64,000 bases of DNA, taken from positions 16,714,126 through 16,778,125 of the forward strand of contig CM119265.1 of NCBI GenBank assembly GCA_051294375.1, given 5' to 3'. The notes beneath the pieces were generated by a model. The model was not told the origin of the DNA. It did no database searches and was given only the letters and a program-made list of their open reading frames with translations. Shown one piece after another: positions 15,584 to 62,113 of the stretch. The position numbers and the translations under genes were made by a program. Within the stretch, counting starts at the first letter, position 1. The number at the start of each line of letters is the position of its first letter. Origin of the DNA: Paraspadella gotoi. Lineage: Eukaryota; Animalia; Chaetognatha.

Positions 15584-18500
15584 TCAACGAACAAAAACGT
15601 CGTCGTAGTGATCCAAAAGCAACAATGTGAAGTTATTAATATGTTGCATAGCCGATAAATTCGCCGGTGCGCCTGTCAAGAGTCAACTTATGGATAACAA
15701 AAAGTTAAAACCTTGGCACTTTCGTTTTCGTCGTGATTAAATGAGACAACATTCTAAAATATTACCCAATGACTGAAAATTATATATACATTATAAGAAT
15801 AGAATTTAAAAAGTAAACAAAACGAAAAAAATGTTAGCTATGTATTAAAAAAGATATGAAAATACTAAAAATCAAAATATATATAGAAAAAAAAAATAGT
15901 TTAAATATTTACTGATCAGAAATAGTCGAGACAACCTTACCTTGAGGCCATAGTAAATTGGGTCCAAAAACTATGGACAAGTTAGAAGACGTCATTTTGT
16001 TAATGTGTGACTGCGCGACAACTTCAACTAAAAACGTCATAATGAACTTGAGGACCTGGTAGTTCTCTTCTGGCAGACGAGTTGTGATTAGTTGGCTCGC
16101 GACCTTATATTTAAAGACGGATCTTTCATCAGTCGAGTAAAAACAGAATATTAACTTGCTCTTTACTTTGGTGCAAATATGATTGTAAACTCGGAATAAA
16201 ACAAATTAAACAAACCTTCACTCGGACGTCCCTGTCCATGTCCCAGAGGGAGAGGATGTGATTGTAAAGTTCGAAGGTGAGCAGGGGTTCAGGAAGTTCC
16301 CTCAAAAAGGTTTTCAGAATCACGGCGGGAATGTGCACGTCACCATAGGCAGTGAAGTCCACGGTCTCCCCTTGGTCGAAACGCGCTTGGACCTCTTTCA
16401 CGTCCTTGGCGTTTGCGGATCGTCTAACGAAAGAAAAATTGAAAATATGATGATGCTGTGGCGGTATATTCACACCACCTCACGTCCACCATCCGTCAGC
16501 CAAATCCATTGGCTCAGATGCTTAGTCTATTACAGTGGTATTTACAAAGGTCAACGTTTTGACCACAAATAAACTGGGGGAAACGAGCGGGGTCAGGTTG
16601 TTATGGTCAAGTGGTTTGACCGAGGTTGCATGTTCTTCATGTTCGTCCACACATCCCCCCACCAAGCCTTTGACCGGGTGGGGAGAAGGCTTGAGAGAAG
16701 TTATTGAGCTGCGTCGTTGTTTTCTTCGTCATCTTCCGGCGGTTGAAGCATTGTCGGAAGGACGTTAAACAGATCGGGAATGGATGATGATTGTCGACGA
16801 GCAACTTGGGGCATCATGGATGACGCGAGAGGCGCCGCTTCCGTTTCCGGAGGCGGTGCGACTTCGTCGTTGACGGTTGGAGCCGCTACTGAAGCGCGAC
16901 GCGGGCGACCTCGTGGGCGTGCCCGCGGTGGTTCAGGAGGAGCGGCTTCGTCGGTGACGGCAGGTTTAATCTTGTTTAATCTTTTACCTCCTAGGGTAAC
17001 CGCGCCAGTGACTGGAGGCGTCACTGAGGGTCGGAAGCCCCCAAAGCCAACAGTGAGATGCCCCATCCCAATGGGCATCACAGGCAACCCGGCTGTTGCC
17101 ATAAGTGGTGAGCCCTACTATCGAACACGCAACCTTTTCAGGGTACGCTACGACAAACGCCTATGCCCCTGGGGTACGCTACGCCTATGCCCCCACAACT
17201 CGCGCTCTCTCTCTCCCACTATGGTAGCAGTCTTGTCAGACACCTCTCAGGCTTGAGGAACCTGAGTGATGTCTTGGCCCGGGGATCCTGTGGCGGTATA
17301 TTCACACCACCTCACGTCCACCATCCGTCAGCCAAATCCATTGGCTCAGAGGGGGAACACACCATCCCAGGCGTAGTTTTCCTTCCACAGTCCTAACGAC
17401 TTCCCTCTGCGTTGGCAAAGCGAGACCGTCCTAGGGTAACCGCGCCAGTGACTGGAGGCGTCACTGAGGGTCGGAAGCCCCCAAAGCCAACAGTGAGATG
17501 CCCATCCCAATGGGCATCACAGGCAACCCGGCTGTTGCCCTAATGCGATCTTTCAATGAAAAATTTTAACGACATAAAACCTGAATATTCCCTCGCAGTC
17601 GAGAGCGTGGCACTGAAGGTAAGAGATGGTCTGCTGGACGACGGGTGGTACTGCTTCCCCCTGGTGCTCGCGCAAAAATTTGAGCGAGACGCGGAACTGC
17701 TGCGAGTCCAAGGGGGCGAGGAATGTCGCGGTCGTTCGAGCAGGGACCACTGAGGTAATAAAGTTGTACGTAGACGTAGAGTAAAACTCCCCCAAAATGA
17801 ATAACAGATATCCAACCTGGTCTGTATCGTTGTACTAATGCTCGGTCATAATCGAGAACCTCCTTGGGAATGACTAGTTGGTCGAAATGCAGATGCTCGT
17901 TCAATTCGTGAAGGTAATTCATGTAGATGATCTTAAATCATAACGTAAAAGAACTTTCAAAAAAGGCCAATGTAAAATCAAATATTTATTCTATTCAGTA
18001 TTCTGTGATTCCATTCTGATGACTAAGAAAATTTTTTAATCCCAAAAATTCCCTCAAACTAACTTTTCTCCCAAATTTGGCCGAAATGAGGGGACGGAAT
18101 AAGGTGAGCACAACTTTGACGAAATTAGAGGGATGCACGATCATGAGCTGCTTCAAGTTCTTTTTGTACTTTCGATCTGAAGCGTAAAGCAAAGCGAGAT
18201 ATCATCGTAAACATAAAGACACAGAACCCCTAGAATCAACAAAATCAACTCGCCTAGATCGTAATAAAGATCCTTGAGCAATGACAAAGGCGGCTTGTTA
18301 TGGCTCCTCATTCCGAAATGAAAGTAAACGATGATGTAATCGTTGATGACGTAATGGTCTAACGTGGCCTTCAAATAGCGGAGCAATTTCCGGTGGTCGA
18401 GAAGCTTGTTTGACGGCAACTTGCAGGCAGAGAAGGTGATGACCTTCCGCCCAAACTTGTCGTCGCCCGCGACCTCAAAGATGCTGAAGCGCGATATGTC

Positions 18501-19909
18501 GTCGTAATTCTCGGTTTGCGGTTCCATCGCCGCGTCGCTCTCGAACTCTAAGCGTCCTATTGAATTTATAAAATTAAAGCTCTAAATACAAAACGGTGAA
18601 AAACAAATGCTGGCGTGAAAAAACGCACCCGGAGTCGCCAGCGCGGATTCAAAATCTTCCTCGGCCAGGTAATCGGGTAGTGATTCACCGCTTTCTGAAG
18701 CCCCGAAGCCCAAATCGGAGGAGCCAGCCCCCAAGTCACCTTGCACGAATCCTCCCCCAGTATCTTCCATCGAGGCTAAATGATGTCAAGAATGAAAAAA
18801 ACATTTTCAAAATATATATACCTTCAAATAAACAGAGCGTGCGGAAAAGAGAAAGCATGAATGTGTGAAACACACTTACCTGAATTTTCGAAATTTTCAA
18901 AGACCGTGTTAGGACATTATCAAACGAAAAAGGTACAACACTGATTTGCTACACTGCACAAGGCACAACTCATTAATTTAGCATCCGAATTCCGGCTTAA
19001 ATCGGAAATGATCAAAATACAAGACTCCTCTTTTTCGAAATATCGAAATGGATAGCGAAGTTCAGATAATTCATATATTCATACAAAAATCATTTTGCTT
19101 ACGTTTAAAAGTAAGGTAGACTTATTTTAATTTTAACTTTAAAATTTGAAATAAAATTATTTGAAAAAATGAAACCATTTCCTCTGGTAAAGGTGATAGC
19201 GTTTACAGTTTGAAAATTTCCTCTCATCAATGTGCAACTGATGTGACAAGAAAACGTGCGAGGTGGGATAAATCATTTCTATTAAAAAAGACCTGATAAA
19301 TCTAGATCAGTGACATCGAATTCGAGTTGAGGCTCATGATCAAATTGTGAGAAGAAAATGGCCTCTTCCGGAGTTCCCTCATGATAGTTGTTGAATTCCA
19401 TGGAGGCGTTACGATCGTTCCAATCTAATTTCTTTCCATAATTTTCCTCATTGGCTCCATCACCATCATAGGTTGCATTCTAGCAAAATTGAATTATTGA
19501 AATGAAAAAAAAATTATATCCATATTCATCTGATTCCCACAAATATCAGAAATATAAAACTCCTAGTTAGAAGACTCTCCCGCCATTTGCGCTGGAATTA
19601 TTAAGGTACGGGATCGAATACACATGTACAAAGTCCAAACACTAAATTCCGGCCTGGGGCCCAGGAACACTTGTTATTAAAGTGACGCATCGGTGCCGGT
19701 AAACGCATCCTACAGTCAGATCCGAGATCCCCAGAGCATGGCAAACTGACGGAAAAGTTTTCTGGGACACAACAAGACACCCCATCTAGTGACGCTCTCT
19801 TCACTATCACATTATTGAATCAAAAAACCACCTGATCTTCGTTTCCACTGGTACTGAATAGGTTGTTGTGACTGTCGTTTCTCAGCGGCGGATTCATTTT
19901 ATTATTCAT
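15584..19909 (-). CDS. ARHGAP1: BCH/Sec14 + RhoGAP protein (ARHGAP1/Cdc42GAP, RhoGAP68F-like); long form from ATG 19909, possible short form from ATG 18770
   Basis: [84 protein letters not shown]; stop TGA at 15584. Upstream exons 19909-19832 and 19479-19293 ([14 protein letters not shown], resembling an insect RhoGAP68F N-terminal motif) join 18775 in the correct phases. Confidence 0.9.
16519..16988 (-). mobile_element. Foreign 470-bp segment replacing the middle of the TRIM 5' LTR; resembles the 3' end of another LTR retrotransposon in reverse orientation
   Basis: Absent from the 3' LTR. Minus strand reads ..[21 protein letters not shown]..-stop (16701), then purine tract GGTGGGGGGA (16663-16654), then TGTGTGG (16653), i.e. 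pol tail-PPT-LTR start order. Family assignment is inference. Confidence 0.5.
16989..17051 (+). ncRNA. 3' portion of the same twister in the 5' LTR (lacks the P5/P2/GA/T1 5' strand)
   Basis: Identical to 17429-17491, including T^AA at 16997-16999, but the upstream strand is replaced by the foreign segment. Confidence 0.75.
17411..17491 (+). ncRNA. Twister self-cleaving ribozyme, type P5 permutation, within the 3' LTR
   Basis: P5 GTTGGC(17411)/GCCAAC(17486); P2 GCG(A)/(C)CGC; conserved GA 17424-25; T1 CCG(17426)/CGG(17472); T^AA 17437-39; T2 GC(17444)/GC(17477); P3 CAGTGAC/GTCACTG; P4 GGG-T-CGG-AAGC-CCC. One A.C mismatch in P2; P1 vestigial. Confidence 0.85.
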
Positions 19910-20387
19910 GTTAAAATACAGGAGGTATTAAGAGAGCACCAAGGACAGGTGCTCGAGGGCGGTAGGAAAGCAGGGGTAGTGACAATATAAATCATTCGAA
20001 AACCGCATGCAAAAAAATCTACGGAAGCTCGCAAACACGAATGAATCGAATGATGAACGTAACTCATCTACAGAATTTTACATATTTATCCAGGTTTAAG
20101 AAAAAAGAGAAAAACTATGACAAAGTTTGTCTTGGTCATTTAAAGTCAAGCTTATTTCATCATTCGAACCCTTCTTCGGTGGCTTCATCTACTCTACTGG
20201 AATTCCGAGAAAAAAGGGAGACTTGATGACGTCACGAAAACAAGGGCTTACGGTAGAGAATTAGTTCCTCGGTTTGTTCATGGGTTTTTGACGTTAGGGG
20301 TGAAAAAAAAACACCTACATAAAAAACCTGTTAAAACAAAACACAATATCTTCAAAATTGACAAAGACATAACAGGATGTCAGGAAG

Positions 20388-22225
20388 TTATAACACAGTT
20401 GACAAATAGTTTAAATAACCAGGGGATCTGTTCGTCACAAAATCAAGTTCCATGATGCCCTGTTCGGTTTTGACCGCTTCCAACTGGATGATTCTCTTAT
20501 CGATGTAAAATTCGACGGCGCTAAGAAACTCAGCTCGGTCAAAGTAAGGCACTCGTAAAGGATAGAAGGGTTCGACGGCGGCGAACCCTTCGCCACCGAG
20601 AATCTCGGGTGGACTGACGCATTTCCTGTCGAATGGTTTCTTCGTCCTGTTCATGATCCAAGGATCCTCAACAACGTCGGCGTCGACTGAGGCGACAACG
20701 GCACCGCCGCTCCAATCAGAACGAAGCATCTTCTTAAAATTGTGGACTAACGACACGGTATCAGGAGGGACGAATACTTTGGGACTTTGGTCTGGACGAG
20801 GCAACGTCGTCGGAGTCCAAAACAGGTTGATTCCGTCGAGGGAAACGAGGATGTTCGTGGGCTGGGGGAGGACGCGGCGAGTTCTTCGCTTAGAGCATGA
20901 TAACAACTCGCGAGGAATATTAAAATGATAGCATTACCCGGGAACAGTGGGTGGAAAGAAGTCGCAATTCTCTCAAGATCGCTCCAATGCAATCCGAAGA
21001 ATAACGAACCCTGTCGAGCCCAAAATCTATCAATGCGTTCAAATGTGATCCTATTAAAAAAAAAAAAACTTATGAGGCATCCTGATATCGGAAAACAGAG
21101 CGCTACAGCTTAATATTTGAAGCTACAAATTTTTATATTTAAACGCAGCGAAATTGTATCGTTTCGGTCGATTAAAAACGAAGTAAGAATTATCTTTCTG
21201 ATCATCACCTTCGGGCGTCTCTTCTCGCATCGTCCACTTGTAAGTTTTTGTGGTGACGAGATCCTTCCTCGTCGCTAAAATGACGGCGTTTTGAACACGA
21301 AAGTTTCTCAACCAATCGGCGCCCACATAAGGGAGGTCGATACGGCGGTCGTTCCATGAAGAGATTTCTGTCTGTTTGTCCCTCTGATAATTATAAAACC
21401 ATTCAAGAGGCCAAGGCATTTGGACAATAATCCAACCTATCGCGAATTAATTCAAATTTAAGTTTTCCTTTAACTTTTTAAGTAATACGATTACATTTAT
21501 TCTATTAAAAAATGGTGTTCGGTAGAAATCTAAATAATCAGGTACTATGTATTATTTTATTCGTGATTTCAAAGGTAATTGAAGATAGGATTAATCATTA
21601 AAGATAGCTATTACCTATGCTTTACTATTGCAGCTTTCTATCCATATTAACATTGTTATTTATTTCAGAATACAAATTTAGACGGAGCTTTCCAAAAAGA
21701 AAAATTAAAGGGGTTTTGGGTATTAAAACAAATCCAATTTCAACACTACTAGCCTTTAGATGACGCGTAGTGAATTACGCTGTTGAGCGTCATCGTCTTT
21801 CCGGCACCGGGGCTTCCGTAGATCAAGTACCTTCTAGCAGGCTGCTCATAATCAGCCCGAGTCAAACAATCTCGCAATTCCAGGAATGGTCGACGCACCA
21901 TAAAAGCAGCCTCGTTGACCGCATTTATTTGTTTTTGGAATTTAAGGTCGAGGCCATACTGAAATATTTGGTTGTACTTGTCCATAGGAATTGTGTAAAA
22001 CAGTCCGATGTCGGTTTCGTTAAATTCGGCAGGGTCTCTTTTCGAAGTTCGAAAAACGACCGACTTCCTGGGAAGATTAAGGATTTCCGACTCCCGAGCA
22101 TTTTGACGAGAAGCAAATAACGAACTGGATAGGCTCAGGTATCGACTGATCACGTTCAATTTGGAGATTCGAACAATGTTTTCTGCGAACACCGGAACTA
22201 GTGAAAATGTCATTCTTACTGCCAT
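20388..22225 (-). CDS. DAP3: Mitochondrial small-subunit ribosomal protein mS29 (DAP3), 4 exons
   Basis: AFMVRRPFLELRD, RYLIYGSPGAGKTMTL (P-loop), GWIIVQMP, WLRNFR, YKWTMREETPEG, LVSLDGIN, KKMLRSDWSGGAVV, LGGEGF..PFYP. Confidence 0.93.
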
Positions 22226-22360
22226 ATTCTGCAAAATTGAGAAAGGAAGCTTCTGATCGAAACAAAATTCTTTTTTAATCTGAACGAAAAAAAAATTTAA
22301 ACGAAAAACACGGGATAGCTGCTCTTCTGATCAGTTATGAGAATTCATCGATCGCCTGGT

Positions 22361-22867
<507 letters not shown>

Positions 22868-22887
22868 TTACTAACCAAAGGATTTTC

Positions 22888-22940
22888 TCTGACCGACTTA
22901 ATCTTAATCTTCAGTGAAATCAGAACAGCGGTGAGTCAGA
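22888..22940 (-). promoter_or_regulatory. Conserved non-coding stem-loop upstream of RPS20-B
   Basis: Minus-strand blocks TCTGACTCACCGCTGTTC and TAAGTCGGTCAGA are identical to those at 23644-23685; TCTGACT/GGTCAGA closes a stem. Confidence 0.7.
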
Positions 22941-23107
22941 GCCAAAACTGAAATACACTTTAAGGAGAAACGAATGGAATTTATTGAAAATAAAAACTTG
23001 AAACTTAACAAAAAGAATAGCGATTCCACAATGCTTAAAAAAAATTTTAATTTACTTTAATAACTTTGATTTGTTTTTAGAAAAAAGAATTTTGTAACGT
23101 TTTTTTT

Positions 23108-23613
<506 letters not shown>

Positions 23614-23643
23614 TGTGGAATCGGTAATTCTCGAGATACAATT

Positions 23644-23685
23644 TCTGACCGACTTATTCAAGGTTTTGAACAGCGGTGAGTCAGA
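23644..23685 (-). promoter_or_regulatory. Conserved non-coding stem-loop upstream of RPS20-A
   Basis: Same two blocks as 22888-22940, with an inner TGTTCAA-AACC-TTGAATA hairpin. Confidence 0.7.
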
Positions 23686-23772
23686 AGGTTTTTAAATAAC
23701 TGTAACAAAAAACACAATATGGCACAAACTAAGTTTCAGTCGACACGAAACGAGTAACAAAAACGGTTTTGT

Positions 23773-25498
23773 TCATCGAGTCCGAAAAATCTTCAAATTA
23801 TTGTCCGCTCCTCCGGTCAACATCAAATCATGAATGGACCAATCAACGGCGAGAATCTTATCCTCGTGTCCGCTCATGTTAAAAAGAGGGGCGTTAACGC
23901 TCCGGAGATCCCAGAGTTTGGCGACAGCGTCGTAGGAGCCGGAGAGCAAGAGATGCTCGTTGGTTGGCGACCACGATACGGAGGAGACCCATCCTGTGTG
24001 ATGAGTCAAAGAACTTTTGACGACTGCTCCCTCGGTGGATCGAGGATCGTAGATTCGCACGTGGCGATCCGTAGAACTGCCGGCTAATAAGTTGTTCAAT
24101 GGCGAGAAAGAGATGTCCGTGAAAACCTTACTTCCTACAAGTTAAAGAACATTCAGGAATTTAACAATCACTGCCACATCAAATATTCCTAAAATATAAA
24201 AATAATTACTAAAAATATTCTATTTATTTGAGTCAGTTATTAACACTAACAGACAATTACAATACTTTTCAAACTTTACAAACTGACCTTGAATGAGTCG
24301 TTCTTCCTTAGCCGTTTCGATGTCCCATATCTTTATAGTGTGGTCCCAAGAGGCTGAAGCGACCTTGGGTCCGTCCATCCACTGGAGGCCCGAAACGCCC
24401 TCGTTGTGAGCGGTCAGGGTCATGAGTGGCGTTCTCGTGTGGAGCCTGGCTTTATCTTCCTTGGCGTCGACTTCGTCAATGGTCTTGGATCGCTTGAATT
24501 TCTTCTTAATTTCCTCCTCCTCTCCCGTTCCTAAGGTTTATCACTTAATTTTCTTCAAACCAAAGTACAAAGAACGCCTCAATTACCTGGCTCAGGTTCC
24601 AAACTCGTGGACCAAATTTTAAGAGTTTTGTCCCAAGAACCAGAGAGGAATCTTGACTTATCACTATTGACACAGACGGCGTCTACACTGCCAGAATGAC
24701 CCCGGCATACGTGCATACGTTCTACTGACGTTTTGTTGAAATCCATTGCCCAAATGATAAGAGTCTGGTCGTGAGCACCACTAAAAAAGGTAAATGAATT
24801 GGGGGGTTAAGTTTGACTCTACTTAATACAAATCGTTACCAGCACATAGTCGTGGTATAACTAAAAATAATTGTACCTGATAAAAGAAGAAACGCCATCG
24901 TTAGTTACGTTAATCCAACCAAGGGATTTTATTGCACCGGAATGACCAGGAATAGTTAGAAGTTTTTCGCCATCCGTGTTCCACACGTTGACCGTGTTGT
25001 CGTAGCAACCACTCAAAATATACCTGACATCATCTAAGAAAATGATAACACTGTGCCGAGGAAGTGGCGTGGACGTTATTCGCCGACTCACCCCTTGTTT
25101 CCGACGACGGCGGCCACCCAATCATCGTGCACCAAACTGTCGTCCGGCTTTGGCGAGGGAAATTTCTCAACATATTCGAGTTCTATCACAGTTTCGGTGG
25201 AGAGGTTTTTGTCGACGAAGCACTGTGACAAAGGGACGCGAAGCAGCTCGCCCTCAAGAAGAAAGTCAAACTCGATGAATCGAAACTCCGCGTCTTCGCC
25301 GGAAATGGCGCTTTCCTCCTGTTCTGCGGCGAATTTTTCCTTCAAAAGACCGTTGATGAGGTTACTAAGCTCGGGAGTTTCCAGCGCGGCGGAAACGGAA
25401 AAAGGCGAATCCGAAACGGCATGCTGAGATTGCTTGGTAAAAAATTTGACTTGGACGTGTGACGCACAGACCTCATCTTTGGGAGGGTCAACTTCCAT
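23773..25498 (-). CDS. WDR12: Ribosome biogenesis protein WDR12/Ytm1 (NLE domain + WD40), 5 exons
   Basis: VQVKFFTK..FDFLLEGELLR..STETVIELEYVE..HDDWV, ILSGCYD, CRGHSGSVDAV, SGSWDKTLKIW, TRTPLMTL..H, SASWDHTI, DRHVRIYDPR..HTGWV, LWDLRS..GHEDKIL. Confidence 0.95.
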
Positions 25499-25627
25499 TG
25501 TTCAATCGGTATTGAAGCTAAATTATAGGAAATACAATGATAGGAATAAAAACAGAAAGTCGTTACAAAGTATTATAAAAATTAGCACCTTGATAAAATT
25601 AAGATGAAATAGGGTAAGATAACACAA

Positions 25628-26665
25628 CTAAGGAAGTTGACTATTTCCTCGGTGACAGCACTGAGAAGGCGGAGCGGTCCAATTGTAATCGTATGAAAGT
25701 CGAGAACGAAACTCTCCCTCCTTTCCACCACATATCGAACCAGTCCATAAAAGATTTTTGTGTTTGAGCCGAAGTTGTTCCAACGACTGCTTGTGGGTCA
25801 CCAAGTAAGCCGTGAAGCATCCTCGAGATTTAAATTCTGTGTCGAATCGCGGGTCATGAACCCGACGAACGTCTAACGGAGCCAACCATGTCCCCATGGA
25901 AACGTCTTCGTTAAAGAACAGGCGGAGTTTCCGGGCGTTTTTTGCCACAAACTCAATGAGGCTCTCCGAGATTACGTAGCCGCCACCCAGCGCGTAAGGC
26001 AGATAGAGGTCGCAAAGATTCCACGTCTTATCCGACCATTTCCCTTTTTTAAAGGGTCTGGCTCGGCCATCGAAAAATCCCCAGTAAAGCCTGGGATGAG
26101 GATCCGTATTGGTCTTCAGTTCATCGACAATGGCGTCGATTCGAGCGAATGAGTCGTCGTCCATTTTGAGGACGTAATCAAAGCGAAGATTTGCGTGGAC
26201 CCAGGCGTACATCCACAACACCTTTCTAGTCAGGTTTGCGTAAGAATCGACAAGGTTCTCCAGGATCAAGAGGTCACCGTATCGTTCAGATTCGATCGTC
26301 AGTTCCTCTTTTGCGGCGGTTGTTAAACCGGCCCCACCGACCACAAAAAGAGTGAGCGAGTCTTTTGGAGACGTCGAGCCATCTCGCAGGGTCATCCACG
26401 TATTTCGAGCAGTGTTTCTCTCTTCTAACTTGCGAGGAGCGCTGATGACGCAGACCAAAAGAACGACGTTTCTCCCGAAGAGCAACGACGAAGCGCTTCC
26501 AGCTGCGTCCTCCAAATCCGGAATTACAGGGAGACGGGACAGAGTAAAGAAACGGAGCGAAAGAAGAAAGGTTAATGGGAGAATTAAGAGCAATATCAAC
26601 TTTTTGGGGAACCGTCTGAAGAAAACGGCGAGAACCAAAAGTAGATTTCTCCATAGCTGGGGCAT
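25628..26665 (-). CDS. B3GALT6: Beta-1,3-galactosyltransferase 6 (GT31), single exon
   Basis: N-terminal TM anchor, DSYANLTRKV, KMDDDSF, LYWGFFDGRA, WNLCDLYLPYALGGGY, EDVSMGTWLAP, HDPRFDTEFKSRGC, SYDYNWTAPPSQCC. Confidence 0.95.
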   Translation of the reverse strand: MPQLWRNLLLVLAVFFRRFPKKLILLLILPLTFLLSLRFFTLSRLPVIPDLEDAAGSASSLLFGRNVVLLVCVISAPRKLEERNTARNTWMTLRDGSTSPKDSLTLFVVGGAGLTTAAKEELTIESERYGDLLILENLVDSYANLTRKVLWMYAWVHANLRFDYVLKMDDDSFARIDAIVDELKTNTDPHPRLYWGFFDGRARPFKKGKWSDKTWNLCDLYLPYALGGGYVISESLIEFVAKNARKLRLFFNEDVSMGTWLAPLDVRRVHDPRFDTEFKSRGCFTAYLVTHKQSLEQLRLKHKNLLWTGSICGGKEGEFRSRLSYDYNWTAPPSQCCHRGNSQLP

Positions 26666-27638
26666 CTGGGCATTTTTGTTGCAAAATAGCAAAGAAAAAA
26701 GGGATTTTTAAGGGAGTTACGCTGAGTGCAAGTGAAAAAACATCAGAATTTAGTTTTTTTAAAATAAGTCTGCGAGATGACGAACTGATGTTATAAAAGA
26801 GCTTCCATGGAACTTGAAAGAGGCTTGGTGCTCGAGACAATGTCAGCTGTGGTCACTCTGGGAGAGTAACACATTGCAAGCCGCCATGTCTCTCCAACAG
26901 AACTCTTTGTTCGATTCTATCGAAATAAAAGCGCGCTCAGTTTAAAACGTGGACTCAGTTCGGAATCGAAACCTAAAAAAGAATGAAAAAATTTAAATTA
27001 GTTACCACAGTCTGTGGCACAGATTAGACAAAGTAAGATGTTTATAAATTTCATTAAAATTTTAACTATTCAAGAAAGCGAGTTTATTAACGGAAAAGGT
27101 AAAATTATTATACACTGACGAAAAATTCTTGGAACTGTTGTAAGGTATTTGTGAACGAGCATGCTTTAACTTTAACAGTAAATCAATCCAATCGGAGACA
27201 AAAAAATTGTGCACGTGTTCGAAATGGAAAAGATTCGAAAGTAAGGAACAATGCCTCTTAGCCGTAGACTCAGCTGCAGCCCAAGCGAGAAGGATGAGGA
27301 ATGAACTGTCTTTTTTGTTTAGACTTTTCTGGCAGGTTGGTCGCCGGATCGTTTGTTCACACAGCTTAGATTGGCTTGTCATGCTCATGGCCGGTCGGAG
27401 AAACAACGCCACCATCAGACCTTTTTTGAATCGAACGCAAATTTAACGATTATTGCGCCCTTTCCCCAATATCTTTTGGTTTGGTTCTTTTTAAAAAATA
27501 AATTAATAAATGCTGTTTTAATATTTATACATAGAAAATAACATGATTGATAAATAATGATAATAATAAATAATAAAATAATAATAATTTTGCAAATTTT
27601 CATTAATTAGATAACACTGACCTGCCCCTCCCAAAATG

Positions 27639-28290
27639 AATTATTAGATATAATGATAAGTAAGAATTTTTAAAAAGCAATATATATATAATTAAATAAT
27701 ATAGATTAAACAATAAAAACCTTTATAAAATATAAAAATCTTAAAGAACTATTTTTTCCGAAAGAAATAAAGACAAAATAAAAAAATAGAAAAATATAAT
27801 TAGAAAATAGAAAATAGTGAAACAAGTAATTTTGCAAATTTTCATAACAACAGCAGCAGCAACAACAACAACTAGCAGAATTCTCAGTCAGGGAAAAATC
27901 AAGGAGAAAAAAAAGGCATAGAGCCTAACCTTTCGCTAAAAATATAATCAATTTAAATTGTTTCACTCTAAACAGTAATAGTGGTCACTGGTCAGTGGTC
28001 ACATACAACAATAAACGATAGACAGAGTATGGACAAGGCGAGAAGCTTCGCTCCGATATCCTCTGTCTGGAGATTAAGAAAAATTCGCCTAATTTAAAAA
28101 AAAAATTTATTCCGTTTATTTTTTCTCTGGGGATAAAGGGAAAAAATAAATTATTAGATATAATGATAAGTAAAAATTTTTAAAAAGCAATATATATATA
28201 TATATAATTAAATAATATAGATTAAATAAAAAACCCTTATGAAATATAAAAATAGAAAATAGTGAAAAAAATAATTTTTCAATTTTGCAT
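27639..28290. repeat. AT-rich local direct duplication (27639-27845 vs 28149-28290)
   Basis: AATTATTAGATATAATGATAAGTAA..AAAAAGCAATATATAT..AATTAAATAATATAGATTAAA occurs twice; the first copy has an extra ~70 bp. Confidence 0.8.
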
Positions 28291-28631
28291 TCGAAACACG
28301 ACAGTTTTCTGTAAAAGGAAATAATTAAATATATCTAAATATAACTAAATATAACTAATGATATCTAATGAATTTATGACAGGTTTCTGAAAGGAGAAAT
28401 CAAAAACAACAATGTTATTTGTACAGGTGATAAATTGTGAAAAACAATGGTTCAAAAAAACAAACTGATAATGCGAAATATTTTATATTTATATTATATC
28501 AAGCAGTTGTAAAAGTCAAATTCGCGGAAATGAAAAAGAAAGCAATTGTAAAAAAACCGTATTGGATTTTTAAAAAAATAGTATAAGTAATTTAGTATTA
28601 TGGTTGACTAAAATCCACCAACCGTTCACCA

Positions 28632-28820
28632 GCGGCCATTGGTGCCAGAGGCAAGTCATTCTCCTCCCAACCCAAAGGTGCAGGGTTTTAGCCCGGTGGT
28701 CGCCGAGCAGATAAGAGGGACAGGGCGCTTAACCCGCCTGTAACACGGTGTTACATTCTGATCTGAAGCTCAGGGACTGCTTATATTGAAGGGATCTGTC
28801 ACTAACACATAACAATAATT
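28632..28820 (+). mobile_element. Putative tRNA-derived SINE: degenerate tRNA-like head followed by a twister ribozyme
   Basis: Acceptor-like stem GCGGCCA(28632)/TGGTCGC(28697); A-box-like TGGTGCCAGAGG; Gly-like loop CTCCCAA; degenerate B box GGTTTTAGCCC; AC-rich tail near 28800-28818. No TSD identified. Confidence 0.5.
28706..28781 (+). ncRNA. Twister ribozyme, type P5 permutation (P2 slightly degenerate)
   Basis: P5 AGCAG(28706)/CTGCT(28777); GAGG-GA-CAG (28715-28723); T^AA 28730-32; CCC-GC; P3 TGTAACA/TGTTACA; P4 CTGA-T-CTG-AAGC-TCAG; T1 CTG/CAG is complementary. Confidence 0.75.
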
Positions 28821-30011
28821 ACTGTCTCTTCAGTATGAATAAAATCATAATATTCTGTACGAGCGGAATATTATAAGTTAAGTGTATATTTTGTATATTT
28901 TAGGAAAGATACTGATAAACTTTGATAGCAATTTATTGAGTTGGATTGTGGTCTCGGTTTATCAGAAGAAGAGCGTTTCCCCTTTGAAGAGCAATGCCAA
29001 TGGAAAGCCGACACTCATATTTTCAGCCCATCTATCGTTTATTACAAAATTAAAAATATTCTCAGTTTGACAATTGTTTTTCTCTCATTCTCGCGAGAAT
29101 ATCAAATTGTTGTTTTTTCTTTCTCTTTCCAGAAAAAAAGCCGCTACAAGAATTTTAGGTTTTACACTCCTTAGTCTATGAGGTTATTTTGCCCCATCGA
29201 TCTCGTCTCGTGTTTTGATAAATATGTTCTTTTGACTTTTGTTATTTGAAAAAAATGTTCTGTAGAGGGTGACATCGTTCAACTAAAACTACTTGGAATA
29301 AGAAAAGAAAGATATAAGAACACAGTTTTAAGCCAAGTTGTTAGTCTTACTCTTAGCCCTAATGGTAAAAAAAAATCATATATAACCTTGTTCCCCGACA
29401 AAAATTTATCCCTTTCTATTCAGCCTCTTAGTCTTAGATATTATGAATTCTCATTAATGATAGGGGTAGCCCCAATTAATGGGGTGAGTCAAAAATTTAG
29501 AATGAGTACATGCTCAAACGAAAATTTATACTTTCAATGAACAAAAAAAATTGTATATGGCTCTATACCCGAATAATTATTTTTTAAATATTTATTTATA
29601 GATAGGAAAGGCCAAATTTTTTTATGATAAATTTTTTTATGATAAGTGAGTCAAAAATAAGAAAGACTAAAAAATCGTCATCATCATCATCTTTCGATGA
29701 TTTTATCAGTTTTTTGTATTTTCATTTAGAAAACAGAGGAATTTTTAAAAGCTTTGATTATATCTCTCTTTTAACTTTTTATGCTCTATCAAAATCCGGC
29801 GAATCCGAAACTGTTCTTAAAATTAAAAAAAAAGATTTTGAAATTTTATGATATTATAAGGATATTACTATAAAAAAATTCAATTAATGATACGGTTATG
29901 CATTTTTTTTTTTGAAAAAAAAAGCTTAATTATTTTTTATTACATTGTTCATTTGCTTAATCTTTTCATCACTTCATTGAGTAAAGCCATCAGCTTATTA
30001 GCACTAGGTCG

Positions 30012-30092
30012 GCCATAAACTGCCTTGGGGGCCTGGAAAACCCTCAAGCCTGGTTCCAAGCCCAGGACCCGTTCCATAGCTGCTGAGGAGGC
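30012..30092 (+). ncRNA. Degenerate twister-like motif
   Basis: TAA(30016)-ACT-GC, P3 CTTGGGGG/CCCTCAAG, P4 CCTGG-T-TCC-AAGC-CCAGG, downstream GA-GGA (30085-89) complementary to TCC; no P2 partner found. Confidence 0.5.
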
Positions 30093-30320
30093 ATAGAAGA
30101 TACGCATAATAGTCTTCAGCCAACTTAGCGTCTTATCCATAATTCTTTGAAATATTATACAACTTCTTTGCCAGGTACTCTGGGAATGAATAAACGAGAC
30201 TGTGAGAGTCTTGCGCCTTATTTTCCCAGAAAGCCCCATTTTATCTTAAATTCAAAATTAGTGAGGCGACTTACCTTCGGTCTCTCTCTCTAAACCCTTC
30301 CTCTCTCCTCTTTCTTCGAG

Positions 30321-30430
30321 CCGGTCTATTCCACACGGTCACTTTGCCATAGCTTTGGCAATGACCTTAGATTGACCGGACACAGTAATAGGGCCGAGGC
30401 GACCGTAAGGTCAAGTTGGTCCGGGCGATG
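30321..30430. other. Two-hairpin structured element of unknown class
   Basis: Hairpin 1 CCGGTC..GGTCA.TTGCCA/TGGCAA.TGACC..GACCGG; spacer containing ACAGTA; hairpin 2 GGGCC..GACC-GTAA-GGTC..GGTCC. Confidence 0.45.
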
Positions 30431-30540
30431 ATAAAAGTGGATCAGGAGAGAGCTAGACTCACTTCTTTTCTACTTCTCTTAAATCGTCACAATTCTTCAC
30501 TCTCTCTTCATATTTATTATTACATTCTTCGTCTTCTACA

Positions 30541-30857
30541 TTAGGTTAATTTTTTAAATTATAAATTAGGTTAAAGCTTTGGGCCAAGGATTAGGTTAAT
30601 GATTAAGGTTAGGGACTTGGTTTGTGATTAGGGTTAAGGTTTGCTTCAAAAATTTATAAATATATTAAGGATAAAAAAATTGGGGCAAAAACGAAAAACG
30701 AGTTAAAGGTTAATGTTAAAAATTAGAGATAAGGGTTTAGGGTTAAGTTTCAAGATTTGGTCAGGGTTAAAGATTAGGGTTAGGGTTTGCTTTATAAATT
30801 TATAAATATATTTATTTTAAATATTAAAGTTAAAAAAATTTGGGCAAAAACGAAAAA
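30541..30857 (+). repeat. Degenerate TTAGG/TTAGGG/TTAAGG-rich tract with internal direct repeat (similar tract at ~31540-31640)
   Basis: Scattered TTAGGTTA and TTAGGGTTAGGG units; AAATTTATAAATATATT..GGGCAAAAACGAAAA occurs twice. Confidence 0.6.
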
Positions 30858-55097: not shown

Positions 55098-55863
55098 TTC
55101 GTGTGATTTGCGACCGTGACGCGTGAAACTCGATTCAAGATGGCGACGAACGTAATCACGAGGCTTTCGCCGGTGCGTTTCGTGATCTGGTCAATAATAA
55201 ACAGCATTAAGTAGAGACGACGTCGTCCGCTTACGGTTTGATGATTCCTCGATAGGGAATTTCTTTTTTAAACTGTCTGAACATCATGAACTGAAAAATT
55301 ATTATTCCCAAGCTTTGCTTGGGCTGAAATAAATAAAGAAACACTCTTTGAGTGTTCCTCTCCACGGAAATCTTTAGTAAAAGGCGAAAGATTTGTACGC
55401 TCTGAAGAGAAACCAGAGTTACTTATGTCAAAACCGATTATAACTTATATGACACAACAAAATTAGAGAACTTAAACTTATTTGTAAAATATGGTTAGGA
55501 TAAGTTACGACTATTTTGATGAATAGATATAAAATGTTTCTCTAATTTAAAATAAGTTGTTTTAATTACGAGAAAAGATACTCTTTCGGTCGCGCTGATC
55601 CTATAACATTTTAAATAACCAGATATCTGTCAAACGCTGCAATATGTAAATGAGATTTTGGTCACTTGTTTTTTTTTCTATTTAAACACTCTCGACTGGC
55701 GAGTGAGAGAGAGAGGAGAGGGATGAGAGGACGAGAGAGAGTGGGAAAAGGAGGGGAGAGAGAGAGAGAGAAGAGAGAAGGAGGAAGGATGAGAGGAGGG
55801 GAGAGAGAGGGAAGAGAGAGGAGAGAAGAGGAGGAGGGAGGAAGGAGAAAGAGGGAAGGAAGA

Positions 55864-55928
<65 letters not shown>

Positions 55929-56759
55929 AAGAGGAGAGAGAGAGAGGAGAGAGAGAGGAGATTAGAGGCAGAAAGAGTCAGCACCATCCATGCCGGTATA
56001 ATTCAACGGTAATCCCGCCCTTCCGCGAACGCTCCCCGCCAAATAGTGATAAAAAAGAGATAATATAAGACCGAAGTTGCCGTCATGAAATAACGCGAAG
56101 CAAATTCCGCGCCGCCGCTAATTCCGGCGCCGTTTTTTCCCGCTTCCGCCTCCTACGAATTTAACAACGTCGTGCCGTTCTCGATGATCATTCCGGGTGA
56201 GGACAGGAACGGAATGCATCCGGTCGTGCTCAGAAAAGAGAGGGCGAAAGAAGAGAAGCGAGGGGAGAGCGGCTATCGTATCGTTTCGCACATGCCAGAT
56301 CACGACGGGTGTTATCGAGACCTTTTCGACGCGGCTATCTTACGAGCCATGTATTCCTGGTCTACCGTCAAACATGTCGCACGAGTTGCAGAGGCGCGGG
56401 CGCGGTCGGGATCCACGGGCGCGCTCTTTGTTTGCTCGCCGGAGACGAGCTACGACGTGTGTAGGTCGGACTGCCGATCAAGCGGGGAGGTTATTTCAGC
56501 AGATCATGGTGTGGAGCGGGGGTATCCTCGCTGGCTTCGCCCCTACGCGATAATGCGTCCATCCAGGCCAACCCGACGTTCAAACGCTGCCGCTTTTGGA
56601 AGTTCGGACGTAGTCGGTATTGTCGAGAAGGCGCCGTGCCAGATCTGGCGTGAGAGAGTTAGTAGGGCGCTGCAGACGCCGCTTGCCCACCGAGAAGGTT
56701 TTTCTTCGCGAAATCGCCTCGGATCAAGTTTCTGGTCAGCCGGTCAACGCCGGCCTTAG

Positions 56760-58945
56760 ATCCGATGCGCGCCGACAGCCCTCGCTTCGTTGTAACGTTC
56801 GTCAAGTTTCAAAGCGTCGAAGTCCAACTTGCAAGGCGCGAAAAGAGCGTCAAGAAGGCCGCTACTCGTTCAAGAGTCGGGAGAACGAGGCGAGGAACAG
56901 GGGAGCCAAGCGCTTAGCGAAAGAATGCGGGTTTCTTCCGCGAGCAGGGCCGCGCCTCGTTCCGGACTGGCAGGCCCTCTTCAAATCGATTGTCAGGTCG
57001 GGCCGACCCTCTCCAATTTTGAGGACGAAAAACATTTCGGGCTTCAAGTCGCGAATTGCGGAGGCGAATCCCAAACCCGTCGTTCCTCCCCTGCCGACGC
57101 GGAGAACGCCAGTCTTATCGCGGAGAGGAGGGACGACGAGCGGGTCGAAGCGGAAATACGTGACCGCCGTCCTTGGAGGAAGGGTGAGGCGGAATCGAGG
57201 AGGTAGAGGCACTCTCCGGGGTTGTATTACTCCAGGATCCATTCCTTGTACCGAAGGAGGATGGAGGGGGTGGAGGCCATTTTCTTCAACCTGAAGCGTC
57301 TCAACGCCGAGCTTTTCTCTCACCTCCGTAGATTTCCGCTTGGAAGGGGTCAAGGACATCAGGAAGATGTTTTCGACGGGAGAGATTGGGGCGCCTCAAT
57401 CGGAACCTACGCGGAACGCTTTATCTCCCCCTTCCGTCTTCACGAGGAGCATCGAAGATACAGTTTTGTCGATTCATTTGGAAGGTCGGATCTTCCAGTA
57501 CAAGCGTTCTTCCTTCTTTGGCCGACGGAGCCCGTGGCTCTTCACGAATAGACAAAACGCGCCCGCTAGTTCAATGGCTGAAGCAGAGAGGCAATTTCGT
57601 GTCCTGCTTCTATATCGGCCGGACATCTCATGCGGCGAGACTCATCGAGAGAGCAGGGTGTCACCAAGCGACGTTGAAGGGCGGTCCAGACTGCTACTTG
57701 GAGGCGGGGTTTCATTCGCTCCACCGGGAAGAAGTCGAGCCTGACTCCCTATACAGTCCTTCGATTTCCGTTGGTTTTCATTGGGAACTCGGTCAAGCTT
57801 CATCAGATCTCGCTTTCCGACCGCCCCAAGTTGGGAATCGATCCGGGAAGTGTTAGCGACTATTCACTCCCTCTCGTCGTCTCTCCCAGGCCGAGCGCGG
57901 GTTTAGTCCTTCAGTTTCTGCGGACACCAGCCACGGGCAGGCACGCTCAGCAGATTCGCTTTCCGTTGCCACTCCGACCCGGATTCAAAGAACGGCGAAA
58001 CCGCGTCTACCATCCGAGAAGGATCTCGATCGGACCCGAACGCATGTTAGACGCTTCAGCGCGCAGGGGAGGCAGCTAGGAGTGTGTCAGTCGCTTCGCC
58101 TGGAGGACTGCGTCGCGCCGAGTGGACGATCTGCTCCCAGAACGTTGCGCCCACGTGAGTTGACGACGGATGCCTCGCAGGAGGGTATGGGGCATCCTTT
58201 TCCAGGGAGAGCTCACCAGAGGGGACCTGGGAGGCTGCAGATGTCCATCACCATATCAATGAGAAGCAGGTTCATTGTGTTGGAAGAGTATTCCTCTCTC
58301 GATTCGGGCAGCCTCTAGAAGGAAAATACGAATTCCTTTTGGTGATAGGCGGCGACAGTCATGAGGGTGTCGTTTGCTCTGTCTCCAGCGCACGGTGCAG
58401 GCCGTGATCGACGGAGCTACACGAGGTTTCCGGGAGTCTCCTGGAGCTAAGATCGGCCCATACCTGGGGATCCGTGAATCACCGGGAAGTCACCTGTCTC
58501 AGAGGAGAAACTTAGTGACGGATTGCGGCGTCGGGGAACGCCTTAGATTGCGGGGAATGGGCATCTCCTTTCCACGGAATCTGTGCACGTCAGAATCTGC
58601 GAGAACCTTCGGCACTCCCTTGCGCGAGTCGATTTTTTGCGAACGAAGGACTCGACGAGCGTGCGCCGTTTCTTCTTCTTGGGAGCGGAGGCGCCAACGG
58701 AGGCGTGTGGGACGCCCAGAGCTCGCCCAAGATTTGGATCTTATCGGGGCATTTCTGACTTTCTCCACCCACCTTCCTCCCGAGCGTCATCCGGGAGAGA
58801 AGCTGGAAGTCGTCGGGAGACTTCCTTCTGATCGAGCCCCTTTCTGCCAGCCAGAAGTGGTTCCCGTCGTTGTTTGAGACCTGAAGATTCTTGGGGCCTG
58901 ACGGTTCCGGTCCCGAGGAGAGAGAACGGGGGGGGGGGAGAGCAG
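56760..58945 (+). mobile_element. Heavily frameshifted Ty3/Gypsy-type pol remnant
   Basis: Collinear fragments in RT-RH-IN order: AGCHQ (cf. GYHQ, ~57660), ISIGPER (RT thumb, ~58025), LTTDASQEGMG (RNase H, ~58160), YLGI (IN zinc finger, ~58460), PSDRAPF (IN core, ~58825), then a purine tract at 58917-58943. Confidence 0.68.
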
Positions 58946-60454
58946 GACAGAGCCGTTCATCGGACGCGTACAGCACAGACCCCGCCGACCGCAAAGAGAG
59001 AGAGACCGACCGTCTCAAAGCTGGTCGGTGATATGGCAGATTTATACAGGCGAGGAGAGAAGAGAGAGAGAGAGAGATGCAGAGAGAGAGAGAGAGATCC
59101 CGTGTGATTAATGCGTGAACTGCTACGGACGAGAGGCGAAGCGATAAAAATCCTCATTCCACAACTCAAAAGAGAAATCATTCATCTCACGCAGCGAGTC
59201 GACCGGATGTCCTCTTCTCTCATCTCTCTCTCCTACTCCGTTCCCGTACAGCCTGGAAGAGGCTCGACGCTCCCAACTCCTGAGACTTCTTCTGCCTCGA
59301 GCCTGTCACCTCCTTCTTGCTCTTTCCTTCAATGTACGAGTTCGAGGACTTGATTGCGTCTCTTGAAGGCTCATTGTTCTGGCTCTCTCTCTCTCTCTTT
59401 CAGTACCTATCCCATCATACGTTGGCGTTGTGTCCTTGTCGAATTACAGCACGGAGTGAACCGTTCAAATAAAAGCGACGCGTCTCAGGAATTTCGGCCA
59501 CCCTTGCCGGCACAGGGTTCGTACTCGGTGGGGAACACCCCCCTCCGTATCGACGTCGTTTCTCAACGGGGACCTGGTCGGACGTCGGTAGGTAGCCCGC
59601 GTACTCGAGCACGAGCGGAATAAGTCTTCACTCCTTGTGCCGCGTGGTCTTCGTTTCTCGGTTACTTTCCATTCGCATCGCAGATGGAATATAAAGAATC
59701 ATAGACGCAGAGTTTTTCCTTTTTTTGAGATTTGTTTTCATTTGATGAGACAACAGCGAGAGAAGCGAATCATTTTTCTCTCGAGACGACATTTTTTGAT
59801 TCGTCGTTAAAATCGATAAAAGTCGTCGGTTGAAAACCGTTCAGAGTTTTTACGCGTCTGTTCGTATCGAAAGCCACATCGCGTCGCGGATATATTTCAA
59901 CGAAAAATTGTATATATGTATGAAATAATCTTCACGGAAAGACCCGCTCCATGGGAAACAAAATGCTGCCTAAGCGAGTACCTTTCTATTCCGGATGTTA
60001 ATTGCAGAACAGTCTCTCGATGTCTGCTTTCGGTGTTGTGGTAATTAATTAGTTTCAGCGCCGAGTCGATTAACTGATATGAAAGTAGGTTCCAGTCTAT
60101 CGTCTTTAGTATTCACGGTTAACGCGGCAAGGTTCAGTTAGTATCTCAAGGATGGAAAGGTCAATGACGCTTCTAATTCAATATATTGCAAAAATTTATT
60201 TCGTTCTGGAAGATTTTGATCTCAGCTTTCGACTTTTTTTCCTTCTTTTTCTTCGCGATTTCTCATCTAATTTTTCTATTTTTTTCCTTCTTTCTTTTTC
60301 TCCTTTTTCTATTTTCTTGGAGTTTCTCCTTTCATTTTCTCTTTTCACTCAATGCTCCTCTTTTTTTCCCTTATCCTTCAGTCAAAACGTCTGCGACCGA
60401 TTTTCTTATTTTTTTCCCCCTCTTTTATTTATTTATCTCTCTCTCTCTCTCTTC

Positions 60455-61459: not shown

Positions 61460-62113
61460 AGAGAGAGAGAGAGCGGAAATCGTTAAGTATATAGGCGCGC
61501 GGGAGGAAAAAACTTTTCCCCGCCTTTTTTTCTTTCTCGATTTTCTTTTCTCTTGCGAAAGTTTCCGTCTTTTCGAACCTTTACTATACACTTTTTTAAA
61601 GCGATTCAAAAAGAATTTGTTCTTTGAAACTTTATATGCACATTGCACAATATATACTATAAATAGATACATATTATTATTTTTATTATTTATGTTATTT
61701 ATAACCAAGACCACATTAGAACATTAATAATTGACTAATTATTATTCCCAAGCTTTGCTTGGGCTGGAATAAATAAACACTTTTAGAGTGCATAAAAAAA
61801 TCAACATGACACCGTATCACACGGCTGTTATAAGTTATATGAGACAAAGAAATTAGAGACGCTGTATTTAGCTGTATAATATAATATAATACGGTTTTGC
61901 CAAGTTACAACTATTTTGATAAATAGATATAAAATATTCTCTAATTTAAAATAAGTCGTTTTAATTACACGAGAAGATACTATTTTGGTGGCGCTTATCC
62001 TATAAAATTTTAAATAAACGGATAACTGTCAAACGCTGCAATATGTAAATTAGATTTTGTTCACTCGTTTTTTTTTCTATTTAAACACTCTCGTCTGGCG
62101 AGTGAAAAGGAGA

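What the first reader, a model, noticed from the sequence alone, without database searches (positions are those of the whole stretch)
16989..30092. Three unrelated twister motifs within 13 kb, all on the + strand, two with vestigial P1
Seen: three different T1 pairs and different P3/P4 helices around the same invariant TAA, GC, T-NNN-AAGC and GA nucleotides, which amounts to covariation within one window. Both P5-type examples have only 6-8 nt where P1 should be. Established: P1 is largely dispensable for twister catalysis. Inference: this genome may carry a large, diverse twister load spread over several small retroelement classes, including a natural P1-minimal P5 subtype that standard models could under-detect. 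The + strand orientation may reflect selection against cutting the minus-strand transcripts, but n is small.
Basis: inference. Interest (0 to 1): 0.7.

Follow-up and report, generated by a model that had tools for sequence, protein, structure and literature searches.

The report
Twister ribozymes in animal mini-LTR retroelements
Three self-cutting 'twister' RNA patterns are present, each inside a highly repeated DNA element of an animal genome; two sit in the end-repeats of what are likely tiny non-coding jumping elements, where a stunted, palindromic first stem would likely make them cut best in pairs and release an RNA circle, as plant elements do with a different ribozyme.

Summary
The three motifs are real: 3 descriptor hits against a mean of 0.055 in shuffles, none of 600 reaching 3. 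Rfam misses them. All lie in repeats thousands of times deeper than their flanks. They are not three unrelated classes. A (17411-17491) lies in the 3' copy of a 254-bp direct repeat of an element with a 4-bp target duplication, a PBS-like site and a 185-bp non-coding interior; 16989 is only a half motif in its disrupted 5' repeat. B (28706-28781) lies in a 234-bp solo repeat with fixed ends, a 4-bp duplication and the same layout. This is the plan of plant LTR retrozymes, with twister in place of hammerhead. Both short P1 linkers are perfect palindromes (0 of 22 phage P5 linkers are), like dimer-acting minimal hammerheads, so a two-copy, domain-swapped cut releasing a 440-nt monomer is the likeliest mechanism. 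C is a separate, decayed P1-type copy, probably RTE-like. The strand bias is unsupported: only A is intronic. Cleavage, dimer need and circles are untested; a Naiad/Penelope origin is the main rival.

The parts
16453..16456 (.). Left target-site duplication (ATGC) of element A
   Evidence: Same 4 letters at 17543-17546
16457..16518 (+). 5' part of the 5' LTR-like repeat of element A; starts TG; holds the ATTGG box
   Evidence: 62 of 62 identical to 17289-17350
16519..16988 (-). Foreign 470-bp insert replacing 78 bp of the 5' repeat, which removed the 5' half of that twister; reads like the tail of another LTR element (open frame, stop, purine run, short TG..CA repeat)
   Evidence: Sequence; far lower depth than the rest of the element; no Pfam or Atlas hit; the Gypsy label rests on a recalled motif only
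16989..17103 (+). 3' part of the 5' repeat: half twister (linker, U^AA, P3, P4, L4), not a complete ribozyme
   Evidence: 1 mismatch and 1 indel against 17429-17542; no complete descriptor hit
17106..17118 (+). PBS-like site, 2 nt behind the 5' repeat
   Evidence: Starts TGG; 11 of 13 match, by eye, to the tRNA-Trp PBS printed in Fig. S2 of PMC10886601; host tRNA not available
17104..17288 (+). 185-bp non-coding interior ending in a short G-rich run (weak PPT)
   Evidence: high depth
17289..17542 (+). 3' LTR-like repeat (254 bp) of element A
   Evidence: bounded by the G-rich run and the TSD
17411..17491 (+). Twister A, type P5, predicted cut 17437^17438; 8-nt palindromic P1 linker 17429-17436
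17543..17546 (.). Right target-site duplication (ATGC) of element A
16424..17580 (-). Intron of a CRAL-TRIO/RhoGAP gene that holds element A; 67 nt without the element
   Evidence: Spliced joint 16423-17581 in a contig of run X9; Pfam; arithmetic
28599..28832 (+). Element B: 234-bp solo LTR-like repeat, TA...CA, flanked by GTAT on both sides
   Evidence: Loose ends with mixed flanks at 28599 (X5 37, X9 11 contigs) and 28832 (X1 122, X5 91, X9 31 contigs); TSD
28706..28781 (+). Twister B, type P5, predicted cut 28730^28731; 6-nt palindromic P1 linker 28724-28729
   Evidence: most other copies carry a C-G pair where this copy has U-A in T1
30012..30092 (+). Twister C, type P1, predicted cut 30016^30017, weak P2; in a separate repeat family; this copy is cut off near 30214
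   Evidence: loose ends at 30084, 30170, 30208, 30215

Best explanation
Motifs A and B are P5-permuted twister folds with palindromic 6-8-nt P1 linkers inside the terminal repeats of two high-copy non-coding element families that are likely miniature LTR retrotransposons (TRIM-like LTR retrozymes), whose two ribozyme copies would likely pair through the palindromes, cut, and free a roughly 440-nt monomer predicted to be circularised and reverse-transcribed. Shown: the motifs, the palindromes, the direct repeats, the 4-bp duplications, fixed ends and the high repeat depth. Inferred steps: (1) a two-LTR element is transcribed across both repeats; (2) the linkers, too short for a stable hairpin, pair with each other so that each active site takes GA/T1'/P2' from one copy and U^AA/P3/P4/L4 from the other; (3) double cleavage releases the cut-to-cut RNA (16998-17437 here); (4) a host ligase closes it, and the single twister left in the circle cuts poorly; (5) a tRNA primes at the PBS and a Gypsy-type element supplies reverse transcriptase and integrase, giving full and solo-LTR inserts. 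In this window A has lost its 5' ribozyme and B is a solo repeat, so neither can form such a pair in cis. C is a decayed P1-type twister of another family, probably an RTE-type 5' end.
For: Motifs exceed chance. A: two repeat copies with 2 differences in 177 aligned columns, ATGC on both sides, a TGG site 2 nt after the first repeat, residual intron of 67 nt like the gene's other short introns. B: both ends were fixed independently by contigs with mixed flanks, and exactly these ends give GTAT/GTAT. Same layout in both: T(G/A)TGG start, shared TCCACCA..CCATTGG box (8 of 500 shuffles), cut at +149 and +132, 51 nt from P5 to the repeat end in both, no AATAAA. In run X1 depth in the unique part of A's repeat (about 8.4-8.9e5) is roughly 2-3 times that of the interior (2.4-4.6e5), a step as expected for LTRs (depth is only a rough index). 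T1 middle pair differs between A (G-C) and the commonest form of B (C-G), and P3, P4, P5 differ in sequence yet pair. Linker self-duplex -10.0 and -8.3 kcal/mol against hairpins of +2.7 and +5.6; fully self-complementary 8-mers and 6-mers are 1.9% and 4.8% of window positions; 0 of 22 distinct phage P5 linkers are palindromic. Precedent: plant LTR retrozymes (PMC4918200, passages); hammerheads with 1-2 bp plus a palindromic loop that work as dimers and spare monomer circles (PMC4209133; PMC7229834).
Against: No cleavage, dimer or circle was observed. P1-less mini-twister cuts at near wild-type rate (PMC5408937), so pairing may be unnecessary, though PMC8501958 calls P1-less cleavage inefficient. 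The PPT is short, the PBS imperfect and its tRNA unidentified; A ends in TA, not CA, and B starts with TA, not TG. No intact two-ribozyme copy was seen. A non-autonomous Penelope-like element (MRC1) was once misfiled as an LTR element (PMC8557442). The predicted monomer is not unusually structured (linear z -1.0; circular: 6 of 60 shuffles as stable, 60% paired against 58%), unlike plant retrozymes. The palindrome rests on n = 2. B's compensatory T1 change could be two CpG transitions. Only 40 of 177 variant rows and 12 of 31 indel rows were shown, so linker conservation across copies is not established.
Confidence: 0.5

Rival explanations
1. A and B are non-autonomous Penelope-like (Naiad-type) derivatives: the direct repeat is a pseudo-LTR made by partial tandem insertion, and the P1-minimal twister plays the part that minimal hammerheads play in other Penelope-like elements.
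For: [quoted passage not shown] Animal retrozymes derive from pLTRs (bioRxiv 10.64898/2026.07.22.740005). Unchecked notes of this scan report P1-less P5 twisters in Naiad repeats of other genomes (leads only). The end of B is joined to the start of A's repeat in 6 contigs of X1 and 2 of X5.
Against: Both ends of B are fixed; 4-bp TSDs at A and B; TGG site directly behind the first repeat; both copies of A's repeat start at the same base; a step rather than a gradual 5' decline in depth. No 30-40-bp tail or inverted 5' copy seen.
Confidence: 0.2
2. They are LTR elements, but the twister cuts as a monomer and only sets the 3' end of a linear RNA in place of a poly(A) signal; replication is ordinary LTR strand transfer with no circle, and the palindromes are incidental.
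For: No AATAAA in either repeat; P1 is dispensable in vitro; the monomer RNA is not highly self-paired.
Against: Two different palindromes in two families (joint chance about 1 in 1000, or about 1 in 290 for the central tetramers alone). Thousands of freely cutting solo copies would be costly.
Confidence: 0.2
3. The motifs are inactive relics captured once and carried along by the repeats.
For: C has a broken P2; B's P2 has 2 good pairs; no Rfam gathering hit.
Against: All catalytic and pseudoknot positions are intact in all three; the helices pair with different sequences; the commonest letters among other copies of B pair better in P4 and P5 than this copy does. About 94% of tested natural type-P1 twisters were active, and P1/P2 flaws were tolerated (PMC11662667).
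Confidence: 0.08
4. One reading: three independent small retroelement classes, all on + because the sense orientation would cut host transcripts.
For: The genes identified between 16 and 27 kb are all on the minus strand; A is antisense in an intron.
Against: B and C lie beyond the last gene of the cluster, with no gene found across them; three on one strand has chance 0.25; A and B share one plan.
Confidence: 0.1

Closest known systems
Plant LTR retrozymes (Cervera, Urbina, de la Pena 2016, PMC4918200; passages read)
   Same: Non-coding; a ribozyme in each LTR; 4-bp TSD; PBS and PPT; many solo LTRs; cut-to-cut monomer as proposed intermediate; Gypsy helper.
   Different: Animal host; twister P5 instead of type III hammerhead; shorter (LTR 234-254 bp, monomer 440 nt, against about 330-350 bp and 600-1000 nt); PBS nearest tRNA-Trp, not Met; monomer not unusually self-paired; circles not shown.
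Type-P5 twister ribozyme (Rfam RF02684; Roth et al. 2014, not held and not read)
   Same: Same strand order and conserved U^AA, GA, GC, U-NNN-AAGC, T1, T2, P2, P4.
   Different: P1 is 1-2 bp plus a palindromic tetraloop rather than 8 bp plus 4 nt; T1 is not CCC/GGG; carries a P3; below the gathering score.
Dimer-acting minimal type I hammerheads of amphibian retrozymes and Penelope-like elements (PMC7229834, PMC4209133; passages read)
   Same: The helix beside the cut site is reduced to 1-2 bp capped by a palindromic loop, in repeats that come in pairs.
   Different: Another ribozyme class; dimer action shown for hammerheads, only inferred here; those elements lack LTRs, PBS and PPT.
Animal TRIMs such as Helenus (Kojima 2024, PMC10886601; abstract, passages, part of the supplement read)
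   Same: Two short LTRs, short interior with PBS and PPT, 4-bp TSD in animals, Gypsy-type primers including tRNA-Trp.
   Different: The LTR carries a ribozyme, not a tRNA or 5S sequence (ARAGORN finds 0 genes).
T-variant twisters at the 5' end of Perere-3 in Schistosoma mansoni (PMC8501958; abstract and section 17 read)
   Same: For motif C: P1-type with poor P1, in a high-copy repeat.
   Different: No ORF, TSD or start at the cut site was shown for C.

Membership tests
Twister ribozyme | Conserved U^AA, GA, GC and U-NNN-AAGC in the right order | tested here: met
   3 of 3 motifs
Twister ribozyme | Pseudoknots T1 and T2 pair | tested here: met
   All Watson-Crick in A, B and C
Twister ribozyme | P4 stem | tested here: met
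   3, 5 and 5 pairs
Twister ribozyme | P2 stem of about 4 bp | tested here: inconclusive
   A 3 of 4, B 2 of 3, C 2 of 3 with one wobble; P2 flaws are tolerated in type P1
Twister type P5 (RF02684) | P1 hairpin of about 8 bp and the gathering score 37.6 | tested here: not met
   1-2 bp only; no P5 hit for A or B
Twister ribozyme | Self-cleavage at U^A | not testable with these tools
   Only contigs, no raw RNA reads, were laid
TRIM / non-autonomous LTR retrotransposon | Two short direct repeats around a non-coding interior, under 1 kb | tested here: met
   254 + 185 + 254 bp once the foreign insert is set aside; one copy only
TRIM / non-autonomous LTR retrotransposon | 4-6-bp target-site duplication | tested here: met
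   2 of 2 elements; B's ends were fixed independently
TRIM / non-autonomous LTR retrotransposon | PBS complementary to a tRNA 3' end | tested here: inconclusive
   11 of 13 to a published tRNA-Trp PBS of another animal
TRIM / non-autonomous LTR retrotransposon | PPT next to the 3' LTR | tested here: inconclusive
   Five purines, 3 nt before the repeat; a similarly short run ends a Helenus interior
TRIM / non-autonomous LTR retrotransposon | TG...CA ends | tested here: inconclusive
   A is TG...TA, B is TA...CA
LTR retrozyme | Type III hammerhead in the LTR | tested here: not met
   0 hammerhead cores in the window; a twister instead
LTR retrozyme | Abundant circular RNA of the cut-to-cut unit | not testable with these tools
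   Family sequence is present in spliced-RNA run X9, but contigs show neither strand nor circularity
LTR retrozyme | Highly self-paired monomer | tested here: not met
   z about -1; 60% paired against 58% in shuffles
Naiad / Penelope-like derivative | Variable 5' truncation, partial tandems, 30-40-bp tail | tested here: inconclusive
   B has fixed ends and no tail was seen; most loose-end rows were not shown, and A's ends were seen in one copy only
RTE-type T-variant twister (motif C) | Element starts at the cut site, with the TSD forming the 5' strand of P1 | not tested
   No read data resolved the left end of C

The most novel reading that the evidence does not exclude
Animals have LTR retrozymes: multi-thousand-copy TRIM families whose LTRs carry a dimer-dependent, domain-swapped twister with a palindromic P1, which cuts only in two-LTR transcripts, releases a stable circular RNA and spares solo LTRs and host transcripts.
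Probability: 0.35. Interest if true: 0.85.

Novelty: new variant of a known kind. Interest (0 to 1): 0.72.

Why it matters
Two papers read here place LTR retrozymes in plants and with hammerheads, and describe animal retrozymes as lacking LTRs, PBS and PPT (PMC7761336; bioRxiv 10.64898/2026.07.22.740005). A twister version in an animal would show that the ribozyme class is interchangeable and that the circle-based LTR strategy arose more than once. A natural dimer-gated twister would parallel the double hammerhead, explain how a genome tolerates thousands of ribozymes, and give RNA engineers a cut that needs two copies. It also marks a blind spot: Rfam misses these motifs, and the largest activity survey tested only type-P1 forms. 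The test is cheap: short transcripts in vitro.

Tried and rejected
No whole genome is held, so the genome-wide census could not be run. Rfam: no twister hit among 21 matches window-wide. Relatives in public contigs: the short-linker pattern gave 32 viral loci; 12 distinct matches had complementary T1 and none had P4 above 1 bp. No RNA holder is on record among the 12 runs; X9 is RNA by guess, but shows spliced joints. Run X10 (another organism) had no cover over A, which is no evidence. Finer read-outs of variation in families A and C were not obtained, which leaves linker conservation and the left end of C open. Ngaro/PAT split-repeat reading (A1-B1-A2-B2): rejected, since the first repeat pair is one LTR split by an insert, the inner pair is not adjacent, and there is a TSD (Ngaro features recalled). 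DIRS reading: rejected, since the repeats are direct. Hammerhead scan: 0 cores. Insert 16519-16988: no Pfam or Atlas hit. Host lineage: B3GALT6 has no named relative above about 55% identity among the best 120 of 868 hits; an animal, lineage not determined. The Pfam scan of 55950-59250 failed on stop codons and was dropped. Roth et al. 2014 is not held. Literature searches that showed no twister-bearing LTR element or dimeric twister in their listings; subscription journals are not covered, and supplements of bioRxiv preprints are closed, as are the unread supplements of PMC11662667.
Full report
Setting. The window is from an animal with a compact run of minus-strand genes (RhoGAP, DAP3, two RPS20-like copies, a WDR12-like gene, B3GALT6) and short introns (RPS20 and WDR12 named from recalled sequence features plus WD40/NLE hits). 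No whole genome is held, and the lineage was not determined.

Observation. A descriptor for the twister core finds three complete motifs, all on +: A (17411-17491), B (28706-28781) and C (30012-30092). None of 600 whole-window or 600 block shuffles reaches three hits (means 0.055 and 0.032); the descriptor was set after seeing the hits. T1 and T2 are Watson-Crick in all three. Rfam reports no twister window-wide; local scans give a partial P1-model hit for A (15.2 bits), a partial P5-model hit for C (16.8 bits) and nothing for B.

All three are repeats. Contigs of 4 of the 12 listed runs were laid on 15800-30800. In X1 unique bins have depth about 104-172; the bins with A, B and C have 4.2e5, 5.5e5 and 2.2e5. 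The tool warns that this is no copy number, but it points to thousands of copies. X5 and X9 show the same pattern; X10, another organism, does not cover A.

Element B. Loose ends with mixed flanks pile up at 28599 (37 contigs in X5, 11 in X9) and 28832 (122, 91 and 31 contigs in X1, X5, X9). These ends give a 234-bp unit, TA...CA, with GTAT on both sides: a solo LTR-like insert. Where this copy has U-A in the middle of T1, 96-97% of depth has C at 28764 and G at 28722, and the commonest letters at 28756, 28757 and 28711 pair better in P4 and P5. The T1 change is compensatory but could also be two CpG transitions.

Element A. It spans 16457-17542 with ATGC on both sides, inside an intron that run X9 splices (16423-17581); without it the intron is 67 nt. 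The order is: 5' repeat, interrupted by a 470-bp foreign piece that replaced 78 bp; a TGG site 2 nt downstream, 11 of 13 to a published tRNA-Trp PBS; a 185-bp interior ending in a short G-rich run; and an intact 254-bp 3' repeat holding twister A. The two repeat copies differ at 2 of 177 columns. A and B share a T(G/A)TGG start, a TCCACCA..CCATTGG box, a P5 twister in the middle, 51 nt from P5 to the end and no AATAAA, though whole-repeat similarity is marginal (35 of 500 shuffles). This is the plan of a TRIM and of plant LTR retrozymes (PMC10886601; PMC4918200). Against it: weak PPT, imperfect ends, and no intact two-ribozyme copy seen.

The short P1. Rfam's P5 consensus has an 8-bp P1. A control scan allowing 3-30-nt linkers gave 48 viral loci and 36 distinct matches; 27 were well formed and all 27 had 15-26-nt linkers. 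Of 20 of these loci sent to Rfam, 15 passed the P5 gathering score. The linkers of A (8 nt) and B (6 nt) are each fully self-complementary: 2 bp or 1 bp plus a palindromic tetraloop. As hairpins they cost +2.7 and +5.6 kcal/mol; as self-duplexes they gain -10.0 and -8.3. None of 22 distinct phage linkers is palindromic. Metazoan hammerheads with 1-2 bp and a palindromic loop beside the cut site act as dimers, which is thought to allow cutting in multimers but not in monomer circles (PMC4209133; PMC7229834). I infer the same logic here, from n = 2. Mini-twister cuts without P1 (PMC5408937), so pairing may help rather than be required.

Mechanism. Shown: motifs, palindromes, repeats, TSDs, depth. 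Inferred: transcription across both repeats, a domain-swapped double cut, release of a 440-nt unit (16998-17437), circularisation, tRNA priming and Gypsy-type integration. The predicted unit is not unusually structured, which is a difference from plant retrozymes. I give this reading 0.5, a Naiad/Penelope origin 0.2, a monomeric 3'-end-forming twister in an ordinary TRIM 0.2, and relics 0.08.

Motif C. It is type P1, shows no similarity to A or B, and many related contigs (97 in X1) diverge from it after 30084, continuing with GA-GGG and another P1 strand; 89% of depth at 30089 has G. It is best read as a decayed copy from a third family, probably RTE-like (PMC8501958); its left end is unresolved.

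Orientation. Only A is in a gene, antisense. No gene was found across B or C. The bias claim has n = 1.

Novelty. Nine paper searches listed no twister-bearing LTR element and no dimeric twister; the library lacks most subscription journals. Seen: PMC11662667 (abstract, section 32, passages), PMC8501958 (abstract, section 17), PMC10886601 (abstract, passages, supplement part 10), passages of PMC7761336, PMC4918200, PMC5408937, PMC10085705, PMC7229834, PMC4209133 and PMC8557442, and abstract plus passages of bioRxiv 10.64898/2026.07.22.740005; Roth 2014 was not read. Unchecked notes of this scan describe P1-less P5 twisters in Naiad repeats of other genomes, one also proposing pairing. They are leads, not support, but they raised the Naiad rival and suggest that the subtype is wider than this genome.

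Verdict. A real feature and a new variant of a known kind: probable twister-bearing LTR retrozymes in an animal, with a palindromic minimal P1. Activity is untested.

Noticed in passing
window 28832 and 17289: The end of element B is joined to the start of element A's repeat in 6 contigs of X1 and 2 of X5 (letters between not known): tandem insertions or chimeras of the two families.
   Followed up: no
window 17091-17110 and 17213-17233: The end of the 5' repeat plus the start of the PBS-like site can pair over about 16 bp with the interior of element A; it may gate priming.
   Followed up: partly
window 16519-16988 (-): The nested insert reads like the 3' end of an LTR element: open frame with an RGRPR motif, stop, purine run, short TG..CA repeat; no database hit.
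   Followed up: partly
window 5400-27400: A tightly packed run of genes, all on the minus strand; single contigs of run X9 span neighbouring genes (20317-22482 and 23531-26972), a hint of operon-like organisation, though a contig shows no single transcript.
   Followed up: no
window 22367-22708 and 23114-23460: Two tandem RPS20-like genes, 74.5% alike in DNA, both spliced in run X9.
   Followed up: no
window 18176-18254: A spliced joint with CT..GC ends, that is a GC-AG intron on the minus strand, in the RhoGAP gene.
   Followed up: no
window 55306-55421 (-) and 61719-61790: A U5 snRNA gene (93 bits) and a partly similar stretch 6.4 kb away, within larger local duplications at 52-62 kb.
   Followed up: no
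window 29968-29978: An 11-nt stretch upstream of twister C also appears in the loose-end consensus of its family just before 30170; C may come from a tandem unit.
   Followed up: no
window 29600-29900 and 30215-30500: Further high-copy repeats flank C; one begins at 30215 with mixed flanks in 119 contigs of X1.
   Followed up: no
window 56000-59200: A GC-rich stretch with broken frames, possibly a decayed retroelement; two ORFs had no Pfam hit.
   Followed up: partly
L153-L200: Many phage contigs carry canonical P5 twisters; 15 of 20 tested pass Rfam's gathering score.
   Followed up: yes
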